Part shown: piece after piece, positions 7,308 through 25,759 of the stretch
Position numbering within the stretch: the first letter of the stretch is position 1
Layout: every line of letters starts with the position of its first letter
Virus record (IMG/VR): IMGVR_UViG_3300045988_163776
Location: 128,001-155,695 of that record
Strand: one strand, 5' to 3'
From: a virus
Length of the DNA: 27,695 nucleotides
Program-made: the position numbers and the translations under genes
Notes under the pieces: generated by a model
Told to the model about the DNA's origin: nothing
Databases searched by the model: none
What the model saw: the letters and a program-made list of their open reading frames with translations, nothing else

Positions 7308-7380
7308 TCATCTTATGGTGCAAAAGGATAGCACACTGTTGTACAGCAGAGATAAAGGTTCGAATCCTTGAAAGATGATC
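7308..7380 (+). tRNA. tRNA-like gene, anticodon arm non-canonical
   Basis: Acceptor CATCTTA/AAAGATG. D-arm GTGC-AAAAGGATA-GCAC is nearly identical to the tRNA-Gln D-arm. T-arm AAGG-TTCGAAT-CCTT. The anticodon region CTGTTGTACAGCAG folds only with a 6-nt loop, so isotype is unresolved. Confidence 0.4.
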
Positions 7381-16886: not shown

Positions 16887-16973
16887 TGGGGATTGGTGTA
16901 ATTGGCAACACGCGGGACTCTAAATCCCGAGCTTCTGAGGCGAAAGTTCTGGGTTCGAACCCCAGATCCCCAG
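16887..16973 (+). tRNA. tRNA-Sup (anticodon CTA, reads UAG); type II-like with long variable arm, G73
   Basis: Acceptor TGGGGAT/ATCCCCA (perfect 7 bp). D-arm GTGT-AATTGGCA-ACAC. Anticodon stem CGGGA/TCCCG with loop CT-CTA-AA (U33, A37). Variable region of about 19 nt (AGCTTCTGAGGCGAAAGTT). T-arm CTGGG-TTCGAAC-CCCAG. No encoded CCA. Confidence 0.7.
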
Positions 16974-17036
16974 CGTCATCAAGTAGAAGCCTTTACGTGG
17001 CGATGATATTTAAACTAATTCTACAACATTAAATTA

Positions 17037-17058
17037 AGTAGAAAAAAATTTCTACTTA
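17037..17058 (+). terminator. hairpin
   Basis: AAGTAGAAA-AAAA-TTTCTACTT perfect palindrome. Confidence 0.4.
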
Positions 17059-17092
17059 ACTAATCACATTTTAATTACTCTTTTCAACAGGG

Positions 17093-17120
17093 TTAGGTTT
17101 ATCCTAACCCTTTATTTTTA
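17093..17120 (+). terminator. rho-independent terminator
   Basis: GGGTTAGG-TTTAT-CCTAACCC followed by TTTATTTTT. Closes the tRNA-array transcription unit. Confidence 0.8.
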
Positions 17121-17303
17121 TGCGGTCCGATCGCATTGCCTAATCTATTGCTCCTCGCGCACTAGTTATCCTAAGGGGTACGGGGAATAAAAAAGGCGTT
17201 TTAGAAAATTTTGAACCAAATTTATCATTGGGCAAACCCCAATAAATGATCTTATCTTACTTTTAAAAAATATTGGAATAAAAAAGAAAGGAGTATTAAT
17301 AGA

Positions 17304-17639
17304 ATGATATATGTAAATGGTAAAGTCTTTATTTGTGATACAGAAGATGACGTAAAAAATCTTCCAACAAATCGGACTCCTGGATGTGTGGCTAAAGTAG
17401 CTAGCACTTCTAATATATATAAACTAAATGCCTCTGGCAAATGGATTCTACAAACCTCTAGTGGAGGAGGAGGCTCTTCAGAAGATATCCATATTAATAA
17501 TGCTTATCTCGATGAAGATGAAAATCTTATACTTGAATTTAATACAAGTTATAAAGAACCTTTAAAGGTTAATATCGGTTCTATTAATGAACCGGAAATC
17601 TTTTTATTACAAGAAGAAATAAAGAAAAACAAAGTTTAG
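17304..17639 (+). CDS. hypothetical protein (structural module)
   Basis: RBS AAAGGAG. 111 aa. Gly/Ser stretch SSGGGGSSED. Confidence 0.6.
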   Translation: MIYVNGKVFICDTEDDVKNLPTNRTPGCVAKVASTSNIYKLNASGKWILQTSSGGGGSSEDIHINNAYLDEDENLILEFNTSYKEPLKVNIGSINEPEIFLLQEEIKKNKV

Positions 17640-17693
17640 GACGTTAGTGAAGATTTCATTAATAGTTTGTTCAGTTAAGGAGGATAAAACAAG

Positions 17694-18389
17694 ATGCCAG
17701 AAATTACAACAAAAGAATATGTTTCTAAAGAACGTTTTGCTCAATATGACACAAAAATAAAAGCATTAATTAAGGATATTGTTGCTAAAAGTGCTTATGA
17801 TGATAGCTCTATTAAGACACAAATTAATGCAAACAAAACAGCTATAGATACTTTAAATGGTGATGCTAGCCAAGTTGGCTCAGTAGCGAAACAAGTTGCT
17901 GATGCAGTAGCTTCTATTGTTGCAAATGCTCCAGAAGCATATGATACATTAGTAGAAATTTCAGATTGGATTAGCTCACATAGTAATGATGCTTCAGCCA
18001 TGAATACTAGTATTTTAGCAAATACTAACGCTATTAATGCATTAAAGACATTAGTAGGTACGCTTCCAGATGGTGCAGCAGCCAAAACGATTATTGAATA
18101 TATTGATTCTAAAGTTACTGGAGTAAAAGATTGGACTGCAGATATAAATACAGCTAAAACAGAAGCTATTTCAACAGCTGCAGGAGACGCAACTACAAAA
18201 GCAGATAAAGCATTAGCAAATGCAAAAGCATACGCAGATGGCCTTGCAACTAATTATGCAACTGCCGCACAGGGTGCAAAAGCAGATACCGCAGTTCAGC
18301 CTGCAGATTTAGGCACAGGGGCTTATATGAACTTAACAGAAGTAACAGAAGAATACATTAATAGTTTATTTACTGCATCATCAAATTAA
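17694..18389 (+). CDS. Ala/Thr-rich coiled-coil structural protein (scaffold/decoration-like)
   Basis: RBS AAGGAGG. 231 aa, low complexity, A/T/K/D-rich helical repeats. Confidence 0.6.
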   Translation: MPEITTKEYVSKERFAQYDTKIKALIKDIVAKSAYDDSSIKTQINANKTAIDTLNGDASQVGSVAKQVADAVASIVANAPEAYDTLVEISDWISSHSNDASAMNTSILANTNAINALKTLVGTLPDGAAAKTIIEYIDSKVTGVKDWTADINTAKTEAISTAAGDATTKADKALANAKAYADGLATNYATAAQGAKADTAVQPADLGTGAYMNLTEVTEEYINSLFTASSN

Positions 18390-18394
18390 TTTTT

Positions 18395-18427
18395 TTAAAG
18401 GGGTTTATAATTTAGACCCCTTTTTAT
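18395..18427 (+). terminator. rho-independent terminator
   Basis: AAAGGGGT-TTATAATTTAG-ACCCCTTTTT with a T-run. Confidence 0.8.
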
Positions 18428-18448
18428 CTTTAAGAAAGGAGGCTAAAT

Positions 18449-20881
18449 ATGGATATTGTATCTAAAGAACGTCTTAAATTATATAACGATCTTTTAAAAT
18501 AGCGAGTACCAGACAACAATAATTATGCGAAATTAAGAGAAAAGACTCTTTCTTGTTTAACGACAGATTCTTTAGAATCATATGGCACATACATAAAAGA
18601 TGTTATTTATTATAGAGATCATATCTTATATTGCATAAAAGACACAGATAGTTTATATATAAAATATCCATCCAATAGTACAGTTTCTGAATTTAGTGGC
18701 TGTTTTGGTTCTTTTGAAAACAAAAGTATATATCTATATGAAGATAGCTCTTATTATTATATTTATACTTTAGCCATAAACGCATTAAATATAACTATTA
18801 AACAAGTTAAATTTACAAAAGCAGATGGGAATATATCTTCTTCAAAACCAATTATTACCGCTTACACTGGAGCGTTAAGCAGTGGTGATACTTTATATAA
18901 TTCAGAATTTTATGTTTATAATGATTATGCTTATATTTCTATATTAAATGGCAGTACTTATTATGTAAAGAAATTGAATTTATCATCTTCTATAACAATA
19001 AGTGATTTATATAGTAGTAGTAGTCCATTTTATATAAAGCCAGACGTATTTGATCTTTCTTGCTTTTATATATTAAATGCTACATCAGTAAAAAAAATAA
19101 GTGCAGATGGCAGCTTACAATCTACTACTAATTTACCTTATACGATTTCAACGACTGGCTTTATAGATTACTTTAACAATTATGTGGTTTATACTACAAA
19201 TGGTTTAATTTTTTATATTACAAATTTAACCACAAGCCAAACTAATATGATAGTTTGTGAAGATGATGTACCTCTTTTAGACAGCTCTAATATAAGAACT
19301 TTAAAAATAAAGAAAATTACTAATAAAGGTGCATTACAATTTTATTTAGGTTTAACAGAAGGAAGACATATTAAATTTTATAGTGATACAACATCATTTG
19401 TAAGATTAGAATATTCATTTATCGATCCTTCTAATAAAGTAATATTAAAAATAGTGGCAGACCCTTATAAAAACACTGAAAATATTTTAATTACTTATGA
19501 TACATAGGCAAAATAGATTAGGGTATTAAATGAAAATATATAGGCCTCTGGAGCTGGAATTTTAGCCAGATTACAAGATACTACTAAGCAACAAATCGCA
19601 GAGTTAACAAAAGTAAAAGATACAGTTAAAACTAATTCTGCTAACATTGGCACAATGCAATATGATATTACTCACTTAACAAACACTGTAAATATAAAGA
19701 CTTCAGATCTTGAGAAAAAAATTGTTCCAACATATAAGAATCAAGGGCTATGCGGAACAGACAGTATTGATAATTATAAAACATATGGAGTATATGCTAT
19801 TTACTCATCATCTAGTACTCCATCTGGATTGCCTTTAGATAGAGCTACAAATGAAAAAATATATTTATTTATTATAAACACTCCTTCCGTTGGAGATGAT
19901 TGTATACAAACTTTATATTACACAAAATAGAAAATAACATATCGTAGATTTTATGCAGCAGGAGAAACAGTATGGAGTGATTGGTAGAAAATTATTAATA
20001 CTCCTGAAGCTCTAAAGAATCCAAATGCACTAACACTTACTGTAAATGGTACTAGTATCCCATATGATGGTTCAGCCGCAAAAAGCTCTACATGGTATGC
20101 GCCTACTGGGGCTGGGACCAAAGGACATCAATTAGTGTCTAATGGCGCAGGTGCGCCGGTATGGGAACAACCTCCATACGCAACATGCGCAAGCACTTCG
20201 ACAGTATATGCTAAAGCAATAACAATTCCTAATTTTACTCCAGTAGCTGGAAAGCATATTTTTATTAAATTTAGCAATGCTTCATATTCTCATGTAAATA
20301 CGGCTATTAATTTATAGGTGAATGGAGTGACTAATGCAGTATACCAAAATGGTAAGGCTGTTACTGGCACAACAATGTATGCTTGGTTAGCTAATGATAT
20401 TGTTGAATTTATGTTTGATGGTAGCTATTGGCATATTATATAGATTGTTAATCGTGTAGAAGAAAATAATACTGTTGCACATACTATGAACATTGATGAT
20501 AATGGTGTGGCAATAAATACTGGTGGATATCCTGACAGTGATGCTTGGACAAAAGTATTGACTATTCCAGGGGCAAGCAGTTTAGATGTTACAGTAATAT
20601 ATTAGTCAGAATCGGCTACATATGATTGGGGTTGTGTATGGGTCGGCAACTATCCAGATTTTACTGCAGCCGCAAATTATTCAACATCTTTAACCAATAA
20701 ATTAGCTGGTAAGACAAAAACAACCGCAAATTATCAAGTAAAAGGAGATACAGTCACAGTAGCTTGGAAGTCTGATGGTTCTTCGCATAGTTATTATGGT
20801 CTTTATGTAAGCATAAAGCCTAGTCCTGTTGGAGGAATTTCTTTCTCTTCTAGTTTAACATATGAGCCTATAACGACATAA
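18449..20881 (+). CDS. large tail-fiber/receptor-binding-like protein (about 810 aa) with 9 in-frame TAG sense codons
   Basis: RBS AAGGAGG then ATG 18449. One uninterrupted frame to TAA 20879-20881 except for TAG at 18500, 19505, 19514, 19541, 19928, 19985, 20315, 20441 and 20603. Track ORFs 18974-19507, 19655-19930 and 20135-20317 are all in this same frame. Ser/Thr/Asn/Tyr-rich, beta-rich composition typical of fibre proteins. Confidence 0.7.
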
Positions 20882-20937
20882 TTTGCGTTTATATAAATTT
20901 TTTGATATAATAAAATAAAAAAGAGGGAGGTTAAGAA

Positions 20938-21540
20938 ATGCCAAGTGTTGTAAATCCAACAGACAAACTAGTGCTAACAGATACAACTTTAGAATTGCTC
21001 GTAGATCAAATACGAAATGAAATTCAAAAATTGTATAGTGCTTCTAATTTTAAAAATGTAGAGTATTTAGCTTCAGCAGAAGATGGTGGAAGTAATAAAC
21101 TTATTATTACATTAAACGATGATAGCAAAAGAGAATACATTATAAAAAATGGTAATGCTGGCGCAGATGCGAAAGTTACTGCGGAAGCAAGTATACCAAC
21201 TGATGATACTGTCGGAACTCCTTCTGTGTCTGTAGATTATAGTGTAGGAGCAGACAATACAACGAATTTAATTTTTAATTTTTCACACTTAAAAGGCGCT
21301 ACTGGTGCGGCAGGTCCACAAGGGCCATAGGGAGAACGAGGTCTACAAGGTCTGCAGGGCCCTCAAGGAGAAAAGGGAAATACTGGCGCAACTGGTCCAA
21401 GAGGTGCAACAGGCCCTCAAGGTATATAGGGTATACAAGGTCCTTAGGGAGAAAAGGGCGACCCAGGACCACAGGGTCCACAAGGCCCAAGTGTAATTAG
21501 TTTAAGTGATGACTTAAATTATGAAGGAGTAACTTTATAA
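20938..21540 (+). CDS. collagen-like (Gly-X-Y repeat) tail-fibre protein with 3 in-frame TAG codons
   Basis: Strong RBS AAGAGGGAGG. After about 130 aa, the sequence GATGAAGPQGP-[TAG]-GERGLQGLQGPQGEKGNTGATGPRGATGPQGI-[TAG]-GIQGP-[TAG]-GEKGDPGPQGPQGPS follows, then ...VISLSDDLNYEGVTL and TAA at 21538-21540. The TAGs sit exactly where Gln (CAA/CAG) occurs in neighbouring repeats. Confidence 0.75.
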
Positions 21541-21693
21541 AATTGGTAATCCAGATGGCTTCAACTTTCATTATTAGTTTTCTGGAAATAGATCTTATAA
21601 AGGATAGGAGCTTAGAGAAATATGATGTATAATAATATACATTAGTTCTTAAGAGAATATAATATAAGAAAAATGAAAGAAGGTAAATAATTA

Positions 21694-22225
21694 ATGGCTA
21701 AAATAAAGAAAATAAAAGATAATAATGGCACTACTATTTACCCTCTTACCTCGGTTGATGTAGTCTTTGACAAAAATGGTAAGACTTTGACCGGGGGGGG
21801 TGCTAAGTTTTATAGCTGGTCCTGATGATGACTTAAAGAATAATCCAACTATTAATTCTATCATAGCTTAGAACCTCACTACTAGTCTCTCCCCAAGAGG
21901 AGGTAGAGATTATGTAAGTGTTTTGTGCTTAGATAATAAATATATTCGTACTTGGTCGTTTTATAAGAAATCAGCAGCCTCGCCTGCGGAAAAAGGAGAC
22001 AAATATAATGCAAGACTCTCTGGAAGTGGAATTCTTGTATTTTGCATGACGGAATAGTCACCAAATCATATTGATGACGCCTATTTTTATCCATTTGAAT
22101 TATTAGGTACTAATTAGTATTTTAAATAGATAAACGGAATATCTTTTGATACTGAGAGCATTAATGGATTTGTAGACCCAATGGGAGATTGGGATGCTTA
22201 TTGGGTATTATTCAAAAAAGTATAA
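21694..22225 (+). CDS. tail-fibre-like protein paralog 1; reading frame interrupted at a G8 homopolymer (+1 shift needed)
   Basis: RBS AAAGAAGG then ATG 21694. N-terminus MAKIKKIKDNNGTTIYPLTSVDVVFDKNGKTLTGGG. The G8 tract at 21793-21800 leaves this frame hitting TGA at 21823-21825. The +1 frame gives a coherent protein of about 135 aa (..AGPDDDLKNNPTINSIIA-Q-NLTTSLSPRGGRDYVSV...MGDWDAYWVLFKKV) ending TAA 22223-22225, with 4 further in-frame TAGs. Confidence 0.55.
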
Positions 22226-22278
22226 TTAAAGAGAATAAATTAATATAATATTTTATTCACTTAATTTATTCTCTTTAA
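22226..22278 (+). terminator. 18-bp perfect inverted repeat hairpin
   Basis: TTAAAGAGAATAAATTAA...TTAATTTATTCTCTTTAA. Confidence 0.5.
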
Positions 22279-22306
22279 TATAAAAAAATAAAAGGAGAGA
22301 ATAAAT

Positions 22307-22751
22307 TATGGCACAAATTAAAAAATTAAAGCAAGGGGAGACAACGATTTTCCCAATGACAGATGCAAGTGCTGTACAATACGCAGGTAAAACTCTCTCG
22401 GATATGACCGGGGGGGGTCTATAGTACCCAACCCGTAAAAATTGGCACTTGGATTAATGGAAAGACAATATATAGAGAAATAAAAGAAATAGATTTTGCA
22501 TAGATAGATAAAACAGCGGACCATTTTTCATCAAATCTATCAGATTTTGGTATTTCTATAACAAAGACTGGAGGTTTACTTAATTTATATATTATAAGTT
22601 TTGCTTTTCCTTTAGATTCTGCAACTAATCAAGAAATTGGGTTTGTTTATACGCCAAATGAATTTTTAAAAGGTATAAAAGATGGGAATATAACAGAGTC
22701 ACTGTTTATTGAACCAATATATGCAATTATTACTTATGTTTCTTTAGACTA
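22307..22751 (+). CDS. tail-fibre-like protein paralog 2; reading frame interrupted at a G8 homopolymer (+1 shift needed)
   Basis: RBS AAAAGGAGAG then ATG 22307. N-terminus MAQIKKLKQGETTIFPMTDASAVQYAGKTLSDMTGGG. The G8 tract at 22409-22416 leaves this frame ending at TAA 22454-22456. The +1 frame is coherent (VYSTQPVKIGTWINGKTIYREIKEIDFA-Q-IDKTADHF...EPIYAIITYVSLD) to TAA 22749-22751. Confidence 0.55.
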
Positions 22752-22790
22752 ACTAAGAAGAATATTTTATTCTTCTTAGTAATTTAATTT
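22752..22790 (+). terminator. rho-independent terminator
   Basis: CTAAGAAGAATA-TTTT-ATTCTTCTTAG followed by TAATTTAATTTTT. Confidence 0.7.
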
Positions 22791-22812
22791 TTAATAAGGA
22801 GAATAAGATATT

Positions 22813-23265
22813 ATGGCACAAATTAAAAAATTAAAAGACAATAATAATAATACAATATATCCAATGACACAAGCATCAGCAGTTTTTCTTAATAATGGAG
22901 AACAGCTTAGTGATTATTATTTAATTAAAGATATGGTTGCGTCTAATAAAGGCGTATCTGATTTATTCAATAATAGGATATATTTTAATGATGTTGGATC
23001 TCCAATAAAAGATCCAACTTTATATTTAATAAAAATAAAAGTAAATGGTCAACAACAGCTTACTTATTATGAAAATCCATTGAATGGCTATATTGCTTCT
23101 GATTTTGATAGTGACACTGGATTTTCAACTTCGCCATTAATGGTTACTAGTTTTACAGATGGGAAAATATACAAAACAACCAAAGAGTTTTCTTTTATCT
23201 ATGATAAAAGTGATAATTCTGCTGATCTAGAAACTGGGCAAAATGATTTAATAAGTAGTTTATAG
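22813..23265 (+). CDS. tail-fibre-like protein paralog 3 (intact, no G tract)
   Basis: RBS ATAAGGAG. N-terminus MAQIKKLKDNNNNTIYPMTQASAVF is homologous to the two frame-broken paralogs. 150 aa. Ends TAG at 23263-23265, followed by TGG then GAC. Confidence 0.65.
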   Translation: MAQIKKLKDNNNNTIYPMTQASAVFLNNGEQLSDYYLIKDMVASNKGVSDLFNNRIYFNDVGSPIKDPTLYLIKIKVNGQQQLTYYENPLNGYIASDFDSDTGFSTSPLMVTSFTDGKIYKTTKEFSFIYDKSDNSADLETGQNDLISSL

Positions 23266-23311
23266 TGGGACAGCATTTGAGTAAAAATAAAAAAAGGAGA
23301 GTAAGCATAAG

Positions 23312-24241
23312 ATGCAATTAAAGTATTCTCATGGCGCATTACTTTCTCCAAAAGATGATAGAGATTATTAGTTTACAGATTTGATTGCGGGAGTTCGTTT
23401 AAGCGAGCTCCCTTCTGAGTATATAAATCCTTTAGTTCATAATGTTCCTGTTGTGGATTAGGGGTAGTCAGAAACTTGCGTAGCTTGCTCATTAACGTAT
23501 TTACGCTGGCTAACCGAACGGACGCAATCAAACAATGAAAAACAATTCTCACCAAGCTATATCTACGGCAATAGAGATAGCTTTGGATACATGGGAGAAG
23601 GTATGATAGTGCGTGAAGCACTTCAAACTTTAAGAAAGCAAGGAGTTTGTTATTATGAAGATCTACCTGGTTTTTATGATGTACAGACTTCAATTAAACA
23701 ATATAGACAAAACAGAGATACGCTTGATCCTAAAGCATATCCTTTCAGAATTTCATCATTCTATGCAGTTAGTGGAATAGAAGGAATTAAGAATGCAGTT
23801 TATAATTTAGGCGGAGTAATAGTTAGTTATCCAGTTTATTATTGTCTATATTCTCCAGATAAAGAGGGAAAAATTCAATTTGATAATAGTGTGTAGAATT
23901 TCCAAAATGGTTATCACGCAATGACTATAGTAGGATGGACTTCTACACATTGGATAGTTCTTAATTCTTGGGGAAAGAACTGGGGTAAAGATGGAATCTG
24001 CTACATTCCTTTTAGTTATCCAATAGCAGAAGCTTGGGGAATAGTAGATCAAATTACGGAGGTTATATTTAAAATGGCAAAATTTATTGATACAGAAGGT
24101 CATTGGGCAGAACAGGCTATTGATAAGGCTGCTGACAAAGGTGTTGTAAGTGGCTTTGAAGATGGGCTATTCCATCCAGATGAACCAATCACAAGAGCAT
24201 AGTTATGTTCAATCCTTGATAGACTAGGATTGTTTAACTAA
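23312..24241 (+). CDS. papain-like (C1 family) cysteine peptidase with C-terminal SLH domain; 6 in-frame TAG codons including both catalytic-motif Gln
   Basis: RBS AAAAAGGAGAG then ATG 23312. VVD-[TAG]-G-[TAG]-SETCVACS reproduces the papain DQGQ..C..C active-site motif only if TAG is Gln. Downstream YHAMTIVGW (His) and VLNSWGKNWGKDGICYI (Asn-Ser-Trp-Gly, the NSWGxxWG motif) follow. The C-terminus FIDTEGHWAEQAIDKAADKGVVSGFEDGLFHPDEPITRA-Q is an SLH-domain consensus. Further TAGs at 23369, 23894 and 24200. Ends TAA 24239-24241. Confidence 0.75.
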
Positions 24242-24248
24242 TGAAAAT

Positions 24249-24287
24249 GCGGGCCGGTCGCAAGACTGGCCCATTTTCTCTTTTAAA
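24249..24287 (+). terminator. rho-independent terminator
   Basis: GGGCCGGTC-GCAAGAC-TGGCCC followed by ATTTTCTCTTTT. Confidence 0.7.
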
Positions 24288-24414
24288 CAACTTACGCACT
24301 TCGTTTGACTATTTATTTATTTTTTGATATGATAAATATATAAGAAAATAAATAAGGAATTAAGCAATACTAATATACAGAGTATTAGATAAAATAGCAA
24401 GGAGAATAATTAAA

Positions 24415-24522
24415 ATGAAATTATATATTTACAAGTGGGACAATGATACTTTTATAGGAAGCAATAAAGGCTATATGGTAAAATATGAAGAAAAGCAGAG
24501 GTTTATAGATGCTATCTCTTAA
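24415..24522 (+). CDS. small peptide (35 aa) immediately upstream of and overlapping the radical SAM gene; candidate substrate/precursor peptide
   Basis: Strong RBS AAGGAGAATAATTAAA then ATG. MKLYIYKWDNDTFIGSNKGYMVKYEEKQRFIDAIS. The TAA at 24520-24522 overlaps the start of the next gene. Confidence 0.4.
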   Translation: MKLYIYKWDNDTFIGSNKGYMVKYEEKQRFIDAIS

Positions 24523-25759
24523 AGAATATAAAGAAGAATACCATTGTCCAATAATCGCTTGCTTAAACATAACAAATCAATGTAATCTTAAATGTCGCTA
24601 TTGCTTTGTAAATCAGAATCCAGAACGCATGTCTTTTGAAACTGCTACAACAGCAGTAACTTATTTATATAAGAACCTAACTGCGCGACGGGAAAAAACT
24701 GGGAATCCGCACCTAAAAGGCACTATTAATTTTTTTGGTGGTGAGCCACTTTTGGAATGGTCTTTAATAAAACGATTAACAGAATGGATAGAAGAAAAGT
24801 ATGCTAATTGTTTCAATTTAGGCATTACAACTAATGGTACACTATTGAACAAACAAATTATAGATTTTTTATATGAACATAAAATAATACCTTTGTTATC
24901 AATGGATGGGGATAGAGAAACACAAGAATATAATAGACCTTGCAAACTTAGAGGTAGTAGTTTTGATTTGGTTAAAACGCATTTATCTTATCTGCTGGAA
25001 AAATTCCCTAATACAGTATTTCGCATGACTATATATGAGGATACTTGTGATAAATTATTTGATAATATTATATTTGCAGAACAACAAGGCTTTAAGTATT
25101 TCTATGCAACTCCAGATAGTAGACATAATTTTTCTAAAGAAAATTTAAAAAAATTAAAAATAGAATTAGAAAAATTTTATAGTTACTTCACTATTAGTCT
25201 AATAAATGGCATTAAACCAATAGAGAGTAGCTTTATAAGAGATATGTTCCTAGGAGTATTGCGTGAGCCTAGTCTTAAGGTTAATGAACTAGACCAATTA
25301 ATACCAAGAGATATAATGAGATGTGGCCTTGGTACTGTAAGCATTAGTATTAGTCCAGATGGTAGTATATATGGGTGCCAAGAACAAGTAACTAATAATA
25401 AAGAAAATAATCTTTTTTATTTAGGGGATATATATAAAGGAATCGCGGGCGACCACCATATCAAGCTTTTAAGTGAATACAGATCGCTTTCCGCAATCAC
25501 AAGTGAATCCGCAAGTTTATGCGAAGATTGTGGGTATCGTAAATTATGTTATCAAGTTCAATGTCCTTCAATGGCAAAACAAAGATTTGATAATTTTTTT
25601 ATATTGCCAGAGACAATGTGCTTCTGGAATCGAACTTTATATGATTTAACAAAACAAGTTTTATCAATATATAATGAAAATATAGAACGATATTTAACAG
25701 AAATAATTGAGGAGGAAGAGGAATATGAGTTATATTGTAGGAGGAACAACTTATCCTGA
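24509..25759 (+). CDS. radical SAM enzyme with C-terminal SPASM/twitch domain
   Basis: N-terminal CNLKCRYC (CxxxCxxC, the SAM-cluster motif). C-terminal Cys clusters MRCGLGTVSISISPDGSIYGCQEQ and CEDCGYRKLCYQVQCP are typical of SPASM-domain maturases. 416 aa. Confidence 0.75.
   Translation: MLSLKEYKEEYHCPIIACLNITNQCNLKCRYCFVNQNPERMSFETATTAVTYLYKNLTARREKTGNPHLKGTINFFGGEPLLEWSLIKRLTEWIEEKYANCFNLGITTNGTLLNKQIIDFLYEHKIIPLLSMDGDRETQEYNRPCKLRGSSFDLVKTHLSYLLEKFPNTVFRMTIYEDTCDKLFDNIIFAEQQGFKYFYATPDSRHNFSKENLKKLKIELEKFYSYFTISLINGIKPIESSFIRDMFLGVLREPSLKVNELDQLIPRDIMRCGLGTVSISISPDGSIYGCQEQVTNNKENNLFYLGDIYKGIAGDHHIKLLSEYRSLSAITSESASLCEDCGYRKLCYQVQCPSMAKQRFDNFFILPETMCFWNRTLYDLTKQVLSIYNENIERYLTEIIEEEEEYELYCRRNNLS

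What the first reader, a model, noticed from the sequence alone, without database searches (positions are those of the whole stretch)
21694..22751. Two paralogous tail-fibre-like genes are each split at the same codon by an identical 8-G homopolymer, with the C-terminal body in the +1 frame
In a roughly 30% GC genome, a GGGGGGGG run is very improbable. It occurs twice (21793-21800 and 22409-22416), at the homologous position after ...GKTL(T/S)..TGGG in two paralogs. In both, the zero frame stops within 10-15 codons, while the +1 frame encodes a coherent domain of about 110-135 aa that itself uses TAG as a sense codon. The third paralog (22813-23265) lacks the tract. Candidate mechanisms are a slipped-strand phase-variable on/off switch of alternative receptor-binding proteins, transcriptional slippage on the G run, or a programmed +1/-2 ribosomal frameshift at CC-GGG-GGG-GG. 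Identical frame geometry in both copies argues against random error.
Basis: seen in the sequence. Interest (0 to 1): 0.85.

Follow-up and report, generated by a model that had tools for sequence, protein, structure and literature searches.

The report
Poly-G on/off switches in phage genes
Two neighbouring genes of an uncultured human-gut phage, probably host-recognition genes, each carry a run of G's whose length differs between otherwise near-identical phage genomes. The run switches the gene in or out of frame, a slippage-driven on/off switch of a kind already known from Campylobacter phages.

Summary
Two G8 runs lie at 21793-21800 and 22410-22417, embedded in an identical 14-nt string, TGACC-G8-T. 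They are the only G or C runs of 6 or more in 27.7 kb. Each sits between a conserved ~33-aa N-terminal segment and a C-terminal body that stays open in the +1 frame. A third paralog (22813-23280) has no run.

Related public human-gut assemblies settle the mechanism. In 13 further loci read as DNA, the same tracts are G7, G8, G9, G10 or G11. Called peptides imply G5-G12. G7 and G10 give uninterrupted proteins (TLTGG(G)VLSF…, DMTGGGVYST…). Genomes 98.5-98.9% identical to the window differ in tract length. Every out-of-frame allele keeps the full downstream frame open. In-gene A/T runs of 7-8 show no frame-shifting length changes.

The tracts therefore behave as hypermutable contingency loci (slipped-strand phase variation), not a fixed programmed frameshift. 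In this window both genes are OFF.

The tail-fibre or receptor-binding role is inferred, not shown. It rests on position (collagen-like fibre upstream, probable lysin downstream) and on gene B carrying one copy of a widespread, unannotated ~111-aa phage module.

Poly-G switches in receptor-binding genes are known in Campylobacter Fletchervirus phages, so this is a new member of a known kind, here in a TAG-recoded ~155-kb gut phage.

The parts
21694..21792 (+). Gene A, conserved N-terminal segment ('anchor', 33 codons, MAKIKKIKDNNGTTIYPLTSVDVVFDKNGKTLT)
   Evidence: The same segment precedes the tract in all relatives. It is paralogous to the starts of genes B and C (D1).
21793..21800 (+). Poly-G tract A (G8 here, the OFF state)
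   Evidence: The orthologous tract is G7, G8, G9, G10 or G11 in relatives.
21800..22225 (+). Gene A C-terminal body in the +1 frame (141 codons plus TAA, four in-frame TAG). It is fused in frame to the anchor when the tract is G7 or G10.
   Evidence: In-frame full-length homologues P0004 (95% identity, 177 aa) and P0005.
21801..21825 (+). Zero-frame tail of the OFF product (…GGGAKFYSWS, then TGA), giving a 43-aa truncated peptide
   Evidence: The identical peptide, P0019, is called on 3 public contigs.
22225..22279 (+). Inverted repeat (26-nt arms, 88% complementary) directly after gene A. It looks like a hairpin that ends the cassette.
   Evidence: I2.
22308..22409 (+). Gene B N-terminal anchor (34 codons, MAQIKKLKQGETTIFPMTDASAVQYAGKTLSDMT)
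22410..22417 (+). Poly-G tract B (G8 here, the OFF state)
   Evidence: Relatives have G8, G9 or G10 in DNA. Peptides imply G6 and G11 as well.
22417..22752 (+). Gene B C-terminal body in the +1 frame (111 codons plus TAA). It is one complete copy of a ~111-aa module (YSTxxxxIGTWINGK…ITYVSLD).
   Evidence: In-frame homologues P0001 and P0002 (148 aa). The module profile matches residues 37-147 with E=6e-21.
22752..22780 (+). Perfect 13-bp hairpin followed by a T-rich stretch after gene B (terminator-like)
   Evidence: I15.
22813..23280 (+). Gene C, the third paralog. It has the same type of anchor, no tract and a single uninterrupted frame (one TAG read through).
20938..21540 (+). Context: collagen-repeat protein, tail-fibre-like, immediately upstream
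   Evidence: Pfam Collagen at 5e-10 and PHROG tail-fibre families at about 1e-19.
23312..24241 (+). Context: Peptidase_C1 plus SLH-domain protein immediately downstream (probable cell-wall lysin)

Best explanation
Each G run is a hypermutable simple-sequence repeat, a contingency locus. It sits in the glycine linker between a conserved N-terminal anchor and a variable C-terminal module, in two of three paralogous cassettes.

Slipped-strand mispairing during phage DNA replication adds or removes G's. G7 and G10 (and, by the same arithmetic, G13, which was not observed) join anchor and module into one protein, with a GG, GGG or GGGG linker: the ON state. G8, G9, G11 and G12 end translation 1-12 codons after the glycine codons encoded by the tract: the OFF state. 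In this window both switches are OFF, so only the tract-free paralog C can be made in full.

The cassettes most likely encode small, interchangeable host-recognition (distal tail) proteins. If so, a phage population is a mixture of particles with different receptor-binding repertoires (bet-hedging).

Shown: the tracts, their length polymorphism, the frame logic and the intact OFF alleles. Inferred: the slippage mechanism itself, heterogeneity within one population, and the receptor-binding role.
For: 1. Length polymorphism at both tracts, read directly in DNA from 13 related loci: A is 7, 8, 9, 10 or 11 and B is 8, 9 or 10.
2. Called peptides in public assemblies imply A at G5, G7-G12 and B at G6, G8-G11, on roughly 80 and 40 contigs respectively.
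3. In-frame alleles exist and are full-length: P0004, P0005, P0007 and P0008 (TGGGV…), P0006 and P0061 (TGGV…, G7), and P0001, P0002 and P0049 (TGGGVYST).
4. Genomes 98.9% and 98.5% identical to the window over 3.3 kb have 8/9 and 9/9 instead of 8/8. The tract therefore changes faster than point substitutions accumulate.
5. All 12 OFF alleles read in DNA keep the whole downstream frame open to the same stop as the ON alleles (104-140 codons).
6. Control: in-gene A/T runs of 7-8 show no frame-shifting length changes in relatives. For example, the A8 at 19090 is 8 in 9 of 9 relatives.
7. The tract is a pure G run in every locus although GGG is a rare Gly codon here (9%). A more distant homologue has an ordinary linker (…SEMIQEGFYSAQPV, P0003). 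Small anchor-plus-module genes in other phages are uninterrupted.
8. Two independent assemblies end exactly at a tract: IMG/VR contig L001 and Logan contig L023 from the window's own run.
9. Poly-G tracts of 7-11 in receptor-binding genes of Fletchervirus phages are an established precedent (Sørensen et al. 2021, as described in bioRxiv 10.1101/2025.10.21.683753).
Against: - No reads were available, so heterogeneity within a single phage population, and a slippage rate, are not shown. All evidence compares consensus assemblies.
- Contig counts are redundant, because the same run is assembled by several sources. Loci were found through ON or OFF peptides, so ON/OFF proportions are biased.
- OFF states dominate: about 57 of 82 contigs for A and about 36 of 41 for B. 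All six 'unbiased partner' tracts are OFF. This could also mean that the genes are usually dispensable.
- The receptor-binding role has no family or structural support. There is no Pfam, PHROG or PDB match, and the AlphaFold models reached pLDDT 46 and 53.
Confidence: 0.8

Rival explanations
1. Programmed recoding. The G8 state is the functional genotype, and the full-length protein is made by +1/-2 ribosomal frameshifting on CC-GGG-GGG-GG or by RNA-polymerase slippage on the G run.
For: Both copies in the window share the same geometry. Out-of-frame lengths (G8, G9) are the commonest in public assemblies. Long homopolymers can cause transcriptional slippage (general knowledge).
Against: The frame relation is not conserved. 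Relatives carry G7 and G10 (no shift needed), G8 and G11 (+1 needed) and G9 and G12 (-1 needed) at the same site. No conserved element downstream was needed to explain the data. The only tRNA-Gly in the window has a normal UCC anticodon; there is no quadruplet-reading CCCC tRNA. Low-level leaky rescue by slippage cannot be excluded.
Confidence: 0.07
2. Sequencing or assembly artefact. The true tract is in frame (G7 or G10) and homopolymer miscalls created G8.
For: Homopolymers are error-prone. Two assemblies break at the tracts. No reads could be examined.
Against: Three different assemblies of the same run all give G8/G8. The exact OFF peptides recur on many contigs from unrelated studies; P0020 alone is on 20. 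In-gene A/T runs of 7-8 in the same contigs show no frame-breaking length errors. No other late ORF in the window is broken.
Confidence: 0.04
3. Ordinary decay. Genes A and B are pseudogenes inactivated by a one-off frameshift at a mutation-prone site, with no switching function.
For: Most public alleles are OFF. Cassette B, and sometimes A, is absent from some genomes, so the genes are dispensable.
Against: All OFF alleles keep 104-140 codons open downstream with no second lesion. ON and OFF alleles are interleaved among near-identical genomes. The tract stays an uninterrupted G run in both paralogs despite 5-15% flank divergence and a strong bias against GGG.
Confidence: 0.06

Closest known systems
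Hypermutable poly-G tracts in receptor-binding protein genes of Campylobacter Fletchervirus phages (Sørensen et al., Cell Rep 2021;35:109214)
   Same: The tracts are homopolymeric G runs of about 7-11 inside phage genes thought to mediate host recognition. Length changes toggle the reading frame and generate mixed populations (as summarised; cited).
   Different: There is no sequence relationship; tblastn against 50,697 GenBank phage records found nothing. The phage here is an uncultured, TAG-recoded, ~155-kb human-gut phage, probably with a Firmicutes host. The tract sits at the same anchor-module junction in two tandem paralogs next to a tract-free third copy. Function and switching rate are untested. 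The primary paper was not held in the library, so the details come from citing papers.
Bacterial contingency loci (poly-G/C phase-variable surface genes of Campylobacter, Haemophilus and Neisseria)
   Same: Both have an in-ORF homopolymer, slipped-strand length change, frame-dependent ON/OFF states, an intact downstream ORF in OFF alleles, and a location in genes for surface interaction (general knowledge).
   Different: The tracts here are carried by a virus rather than a cell. The replication machinery responsible and the rates are unknown.
Phage contingency loci in T2 and T4 (Gomez, Barrick and Waters, bioRxiv 10.1101/2025.10.21.683753)
   Same: Short homopolymers in phage genes give reversible frameshifts and bet-hedging.
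   Different: Those are mostly runs of 6 or more bases in genes of many classes. In coliphages, tail-fibre genes were depleted of such repeats. Here the only two G/C runs in 27.7 kb are in the putative host-recognition cassettes.
Programmed frameshifting or transcriptional slippage in phage tail genes (for example lambda G/GT, or dnaX-type A-run slippage)
   Same: A frame change at a slippery run is needed to join two coding segments in the sequence as given.
   Different: Those sites have a fixed sequence and frame relation in all relatives and yield two products in a set ratio. Here the relation varies from genome to genome, and many alleles need no shift.

Membership tests
SSR contingency locus (slipped-strand phase variation) | Homopolymer or short repeat of mutable length (about 7 or more) inside the reading frame | tested here: met
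   G8 in both genes, starting at codon position 1 after ACC.
SSR contingency locus (slipped-strand phase variation) | Repeat number differs among closely related genomes while the flanks are conserved | tested here: met
   G7-G11 in 13 related loci. Genomes 98.5-98.9% identical to the window differ in tract length.
SSR contingency locus (slipped-strand phase variation) | Length changes switch between a full-length ORF and a truncated one, and OFF alleles are otherwise intact | tested here: met
   G7 and G10 give 140-177-aa proteins. All 12 OFF alleles keep the downstream frame open.
SSR contingency locus (slipped-strand phase variation) | Heterogeneous tract lengths within one population, and an elevated reversible mutation rate | not testable with these tools
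   No reads were available. The only indirect hints are two contigs that end exactly at a tract.
SSR contingency locus (slipped-strand phase variation) | A phenotype (host range or adsorption) that switches with the tract | not testable with these tools
   The phage is uncultured and its host is unknown.
Fletchervirus poly-G receptor-binding proteins | Sequence homology to the Fletchervirus proteins or phages | tested here: not met
   No tblastn or blastn match in GenBank phages apart from collagen repeats. The resemblance is analogy, not membership.
Programmed ribosomal frameshift or programmed transcriptional slippage site | The same slippery sequence and the same frame relation conserved in relatives | tested here: not met
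   The frame relation is 0, +1 or -1 depending on the genome.
Phage tail fibre or receptor-binding protein | Match to a described tail-fibre or RBP family, or to a solved fold | tested here: not met
   No Pfam or PHROG hit for A, B or C and no PDB sequence hit. The models are of low confidence (pLDDT 46 and 53), giving only weak Foldseek hits to tail-fibre-named proteins (best E=2e-4, TM 0.38) and none in the PDB.
Phage tail fibre or receptor-binding protein | Location in the distal-tail or host-recognition gene block, with a modular build (conserved N-terminus, variable C-terminus) | tested here: met
   The cassettes lie between a collagen-like fibre gene and a lysin-like gene. The C-terminal domain is swapped downstream of the tract. 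The gene B module occurs on 60 IMG/VR contigs. In L044 it sits between tail proteins and an amidase, and in L056 next to a tail-fibre gene.

The most novel reading that the evidence does not exclude
The anchor-polyG junction may be a portable 'switchable socket'. The same tract would act both as an on/off switch and as the 5' recombination boundary at which unrelated receptor-binding modules are exchanged. The two gene A domain types lose homology about 13 nt after the tract, and cassettes are gained or lost by recombination between anchors. A gut phage would thereby combine module shuffling with two independent stochastic switches plus a constitutive paralog. OFF-state anchor peptides might also compete for the docking site on the virion.
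Probability: 0.25. Interest if true: 0.65.

Novelty: new member of a known kind. Interest (0 to 1): 0.5.

Why it matters
Stochastic switching of host-recognition proteins by poly-G tracts has so far been documented experimentally in one group of Campylobacter phages.

This locus shows the same logic in an uncultured, stop-codon-recoded phage that recurs in human-gut metagenomes from many studies. Natural ON and OFF alleles are already visible across public samples.

It gives a concrete, testable case of phage bet-hedging in the gut. It also shows that 'broken' small genes at homopolymers in viromes can be switches rather than errors or pseudogenes. Standard gene callers and table-11 translation both hide this.

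Finally, it flags a widespread ~111-aa phage module that no database describes.

Tried and rejected
- **DNA pattern scans.** I scanned IMG/VR and JGI metagenomes for GGTAARACTYT…GACSGGGGGG. Only unrelated, mostly higher-GC (0.41-0.54) chance hits came back.
- **Searches with neighbouring proteins in IMG/VR.** These found one related contig, which ends at tract B.
- **Family searches.** Pfam and PHROGs gave nothing for A, B, C or for 10 distant module-bearing homologues.
- **GenBank phages.** blastn and tblastn matched only collagen repeats.
- **Structure.** Two AlphaFold runs on the in-frame gene B homologue, with 13- and 53-row alignments, gave pLDDT 46 and 53. Foldseek hits on this model are therefore not trusted. 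PDB sequence searches were empty.
- **Host.** A genome-contig scan with the lysin returned only generic SLH and peptidase matches from several phyla, including Paenibacillus and Clostridia; it gave no host assignment.
- **A quadruplet-decoding tRNA-Gly.** I considered this as a rescue route. The only tRNA-Gly has a normal UCC anticodon.
- **The GTG at the end of tract A as an internal start.** I considered this and rejected it. There is no spacing for a ribosome-binding site, and gene B has no equivalent.

Full report
**1. What is in the sequence**

The window is a ~31% GC phage fragment in which TAG is a sense codon. Evidence for that:
- A tRNA with anticodon CUA lies at 16887-16974.
- ORFs from about 15 kb onward carry in-frame TAGs, whereas the main (longest non-overlapping) ORFs in the first ~14 kb carry at most one, and most carry none.
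- Where TAG alternates with a sense codon among orthologues, that codon is mostly CAG or CAA, glutamine.

- Tract A is at 21793-21800.
- Both lie in the identical 14-mer TGACCGGGGGGGGT (D9).
- They are the only G or C runs of 6 or more in 27.7 kb.
- Base composition predicts 0.028 G runs of 8 or more. GGG is the rarest Gly codon (9%), and none of 15 other genes contains a GGG-GGG dicodon.

The reading frames are as follows.
- Gene A (ATG 21694) encodes 33 residues and then the tract. Its zero frame stops after 43 aa. The +1 frame is open for 141 codons, to TAA at 22223-22225.
- Gene B (ATG 22308) encodes 34 residues and then the tract. Its zero frame stops after 49 aa, or 38 aa if TAG is read as a stop. 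The +1 frame is open for 111 codons, to TAA at 22750-22752.
- Gene C (22813-23280) starts with the same kind of N-terminus (about 50% identical) but has no tract.
- A hairpin follows gene A and another follows gene B.

**2. Relatives decide the mechanism**

A search with the artificially fused gene B protein returned 148-aa proteins that are 95% and 87% identical and read …DMTGGGVYSTQPV… in a single frame. The fused gene A protein returned 177-, 175-, 144-, 141- and 140-aa proteins reading …TLTGGGV… or …TLTGGV….

I fetched the encoding contigs, which are human-gut assemblies from Logan and ENA. The genome is about 155 kb. Reading the DNA gives this table.

| Locus | Tract A | Tract B |
|---|---|---|
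| window | G8 | G8 |
| L003 | G9 | G10 (ON) |
| L004 | G8 | G10 (ON) |
| L005, L006, L010 | G10 (ON) | cassette absent |
| L007, L008 | G7 (ON) | cassette absent |
| L009 | G11 (ON; the preceding C has become G) | G9 |
| L084 | G11 (OFF) | G8 |
| L085 | G8 | G9 |
| L086 | G9 | G9 |
| L087 | cassette absent | G8 |
| L088 | not determined (1.2-kb contig) | G8 |

L085 and L086 are 98.9% and 98.5% identical to the window over 3.3 kb and still differ from it in tract length.

Every OFF allele keeps the entire downstream frame open to the same stop as the ON alleles.

A profile search with the anchor, followed by listing of cluster members, shows many more truncated peptides. Their tails identify the tract length.
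- Gene A: G5, G8 (about 27 contigs), G9 (about 25), G11 and G12.
- Gene B: G6, G8 (about 18), G9 (about 13) and G11.
- ON forms are on about 25 contigs for A and about 5-6 for B.

These counts are redundant across sources and carry ascertainment bias, so they show breadth rather than frequencies.

One allele has the tract interrupted (TLTEGGV, P0054), which may lock it ON. A more distant gene B homologue has an ordinary linker (SEMIQEGFYSAQPV, P0003).

**3. Controls**

The window is 100% identical to ENA scaffold BENG15-1_SAMEA2784491 scaffold_68, which is 155,711 bp. Three assemblies of the same run (ERR636392) agree on G8/G8.

In-gene A/T runs of 7-8 show no frame-shifting length changes among relatives. 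For example, the A8 at 19090 is 8 in nine of nine relatives. Only intergenic A runs and the two G tracts vary in length. General homopolymer noise therefore does not explain the pattern.

Two contigs end exactly at a tract: IMG/VR UViG_3300045988_155865 inside tract B, and the Logan contig of the window's own run at the last G of tract A. This is what mixed tract lengths in the reads would produce, but it is only a hint.

**4. Most likely mechanism**

The two tracts are hypermutable repeats that change length by slipped-strand mispairing at replication. They sit in a glycine linker that tolerates 2-4 Gly.
- G7 and G10 give the ON state; G13 would too by the same arithmetic, but was not observed.
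- G8 and G11 (body in the +1 frame) and G9 and G12 (body in the -1 frame) give the OFF state.

In this window both are OFF.

A fixed programmed frameshift, or slippage as the designed route, is disfavoured because the frame relation differs from genome to genome. A low level of leaky rescue cannot be excluded.

Simple decay is disfavoured for three reasons: the downstream frames are intact, the tract stays a pure G run despite codon bias, and ON and OFF alleles are interleaved among near-identical genomes.

**5. What the genes are**

A, B and C match no Pfam, PHROG or PDB family.

Residues 37-147 of gene B are one full copy of a ~111-aa module (YSTxExxIGTWIDGKPLYRK … EYTKTTD). The module occurs 1-4 times in tandem, often at the C-terminal end of longer uncharacterised proteins, and on 60 IMG/VR viral contigs. 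None of those contigs has a G or C run of 7 or more near the module, so the tract is specific to this lineage.

In other phages, small genes with an N-terminal segment plus the module are uninterrupted. In L044 such a gene lies between tail proteins and an amidase, and in L056 next to a tail-fibre gene.

In the window the cassettes lie between a collagen-repeat fibre protein and a Peptidase_C1-SLH protein.

Comparing loci shows how the cassettes move.
- The gene A C-terminal domain exists in two unrelated types. Homology is lost about 13 nt after the tract and resumes at the stop codon.
- Cassette B is lost by recombination between the B and C anchors.

All this fits interchangeable distal-tail or host-recognition modules on a common adaptor, but that role is inferred. 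The structure models were too poor to use (pLDDT 46 and 53).

**6. Comparison with what is known**

The closest precedent is the 7-11 G tracts in receptor-binding genes of Campylobacter Fletchervirus phages (Sørensen et al. 2021). I could read about that work only through citing papers.

There is no sequence relationship, so the window's genes work like that system but are not members of it.

A 2025 preprint describes contingency loci in T2 and T4 and notes that such repeats are depleted in coliphage tail-fibre genes.

The new elements here are the host environment and phage type (an uncultured, TAG-recoded, ~155-kb gut phage), the duplicated switch at the same anchor-module junction beside a constitutive paralog, and the visibility of natural ON and OFF alleles in public data.

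**7. Verdict**

- The tail-fibre label is plausible but unproven.
- This is a new member of a known kind, of moderate interest (0.5).
- The decisive missing piece is read-level tract-length distributions within single samples.

Noticed in passing
window 16887-16974 (tRNA-CUA); TAG use across 15039-27525: The genome uses TAG as a sense codon in its late genes, while the main ORFs of the first ~14 kb carry at most one in-frame TAG. The suppressor tRNA is 88 nt long with a long variable arm (class II shape). Even so, TAG alternates mainly with CAG or CAA (Gln, 12 cases) and GAA (7 cases) among orthologues.
   Followed up: partly
window 16964-17025: A weak HDV-like ribozyme match (Rfam CPEB3_ribozyme, 15.7 bits, E=0.29, below gathering) starts at the 3' end of the tRNA-CUA. 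This is the position reported for 'theta' ribozymes next to suppressor tRNAs of recoded gut phages (PMC10879173).
   Followed up: partly
window 11037-11109 and 13082-13156; also 7309-7378, 10296-10367, 13182-13252, 13283-13353, 14589-14673: ARAGORN calls two tRNA-like genes with abnormal anticodon loops (a 4-base 'gatt' and a 2-base 'aa'). Rfam finds five further weak tRNA matches that ARAGORN does not call. They may be degenerate or unusual tRNAs within the tRNA array.
   Followed up: no
gene B residues 37-147 (window 22417-22752); P0067-P0094; L025-L083: A ~111-aa module (YSTxExxIGTWIDGKPLYRK…EYTKTTD) is widespread. It occurs 1-4 times in tandem per protein and on 60 IMG/VR contigs, yet has no Pfam, PHROG or PDB counterpart. 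It is a candidate undescribed phage host-recognition domain. One homologue (P0067) begins with a prepilin-like hydrophobic N-terminus.
   Followed up: partly
L001 position 1 (IMGVR_UViG_3300045988_155865 end) and L023 end (Logan ERR636392_6156): Two independent assemblies terminate exactly in or at a poly-G tract. This suggests graph branching from mixed tract lengths, or a coverage drop at the run.
   Followed up: partly
window 21541-23320 compared with L003, L005, L010, L087: The cassette array is fluid. Gene A has two unrelated C-terminal domain types that are exchanged between the tract and the stop codon. Cassette B or A is absent in some genomes, with breakpoints in the repeated anchors.
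   Followed up: yes
window 22282-22288 and 23289-23295: The intergenic A runs just upstream of the ribosome-binding sites of genes B and of the gene after C vary from 5 to 9 among relatives. They might modulate expression, or they may simply be unconstrained.
   Followed up: no
window 23312-24241 and 24485-25759: A papain-family peptidase fused to an S-layer-homology domain (a likely lysin, pointing to a host with an S-layer) is followed by a radical-SAM/SPASM-type enzyme gene in the late region.
   Followed up: no
window 15039-16001: This is the first TAG-rich ORF (320 aa, 10 in-frame TAG). It has a repeated W-H-C-K-C-D-C-G cysteine motif, lies directly after the tRNA array, and has no assigned function.
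   Followed up: no
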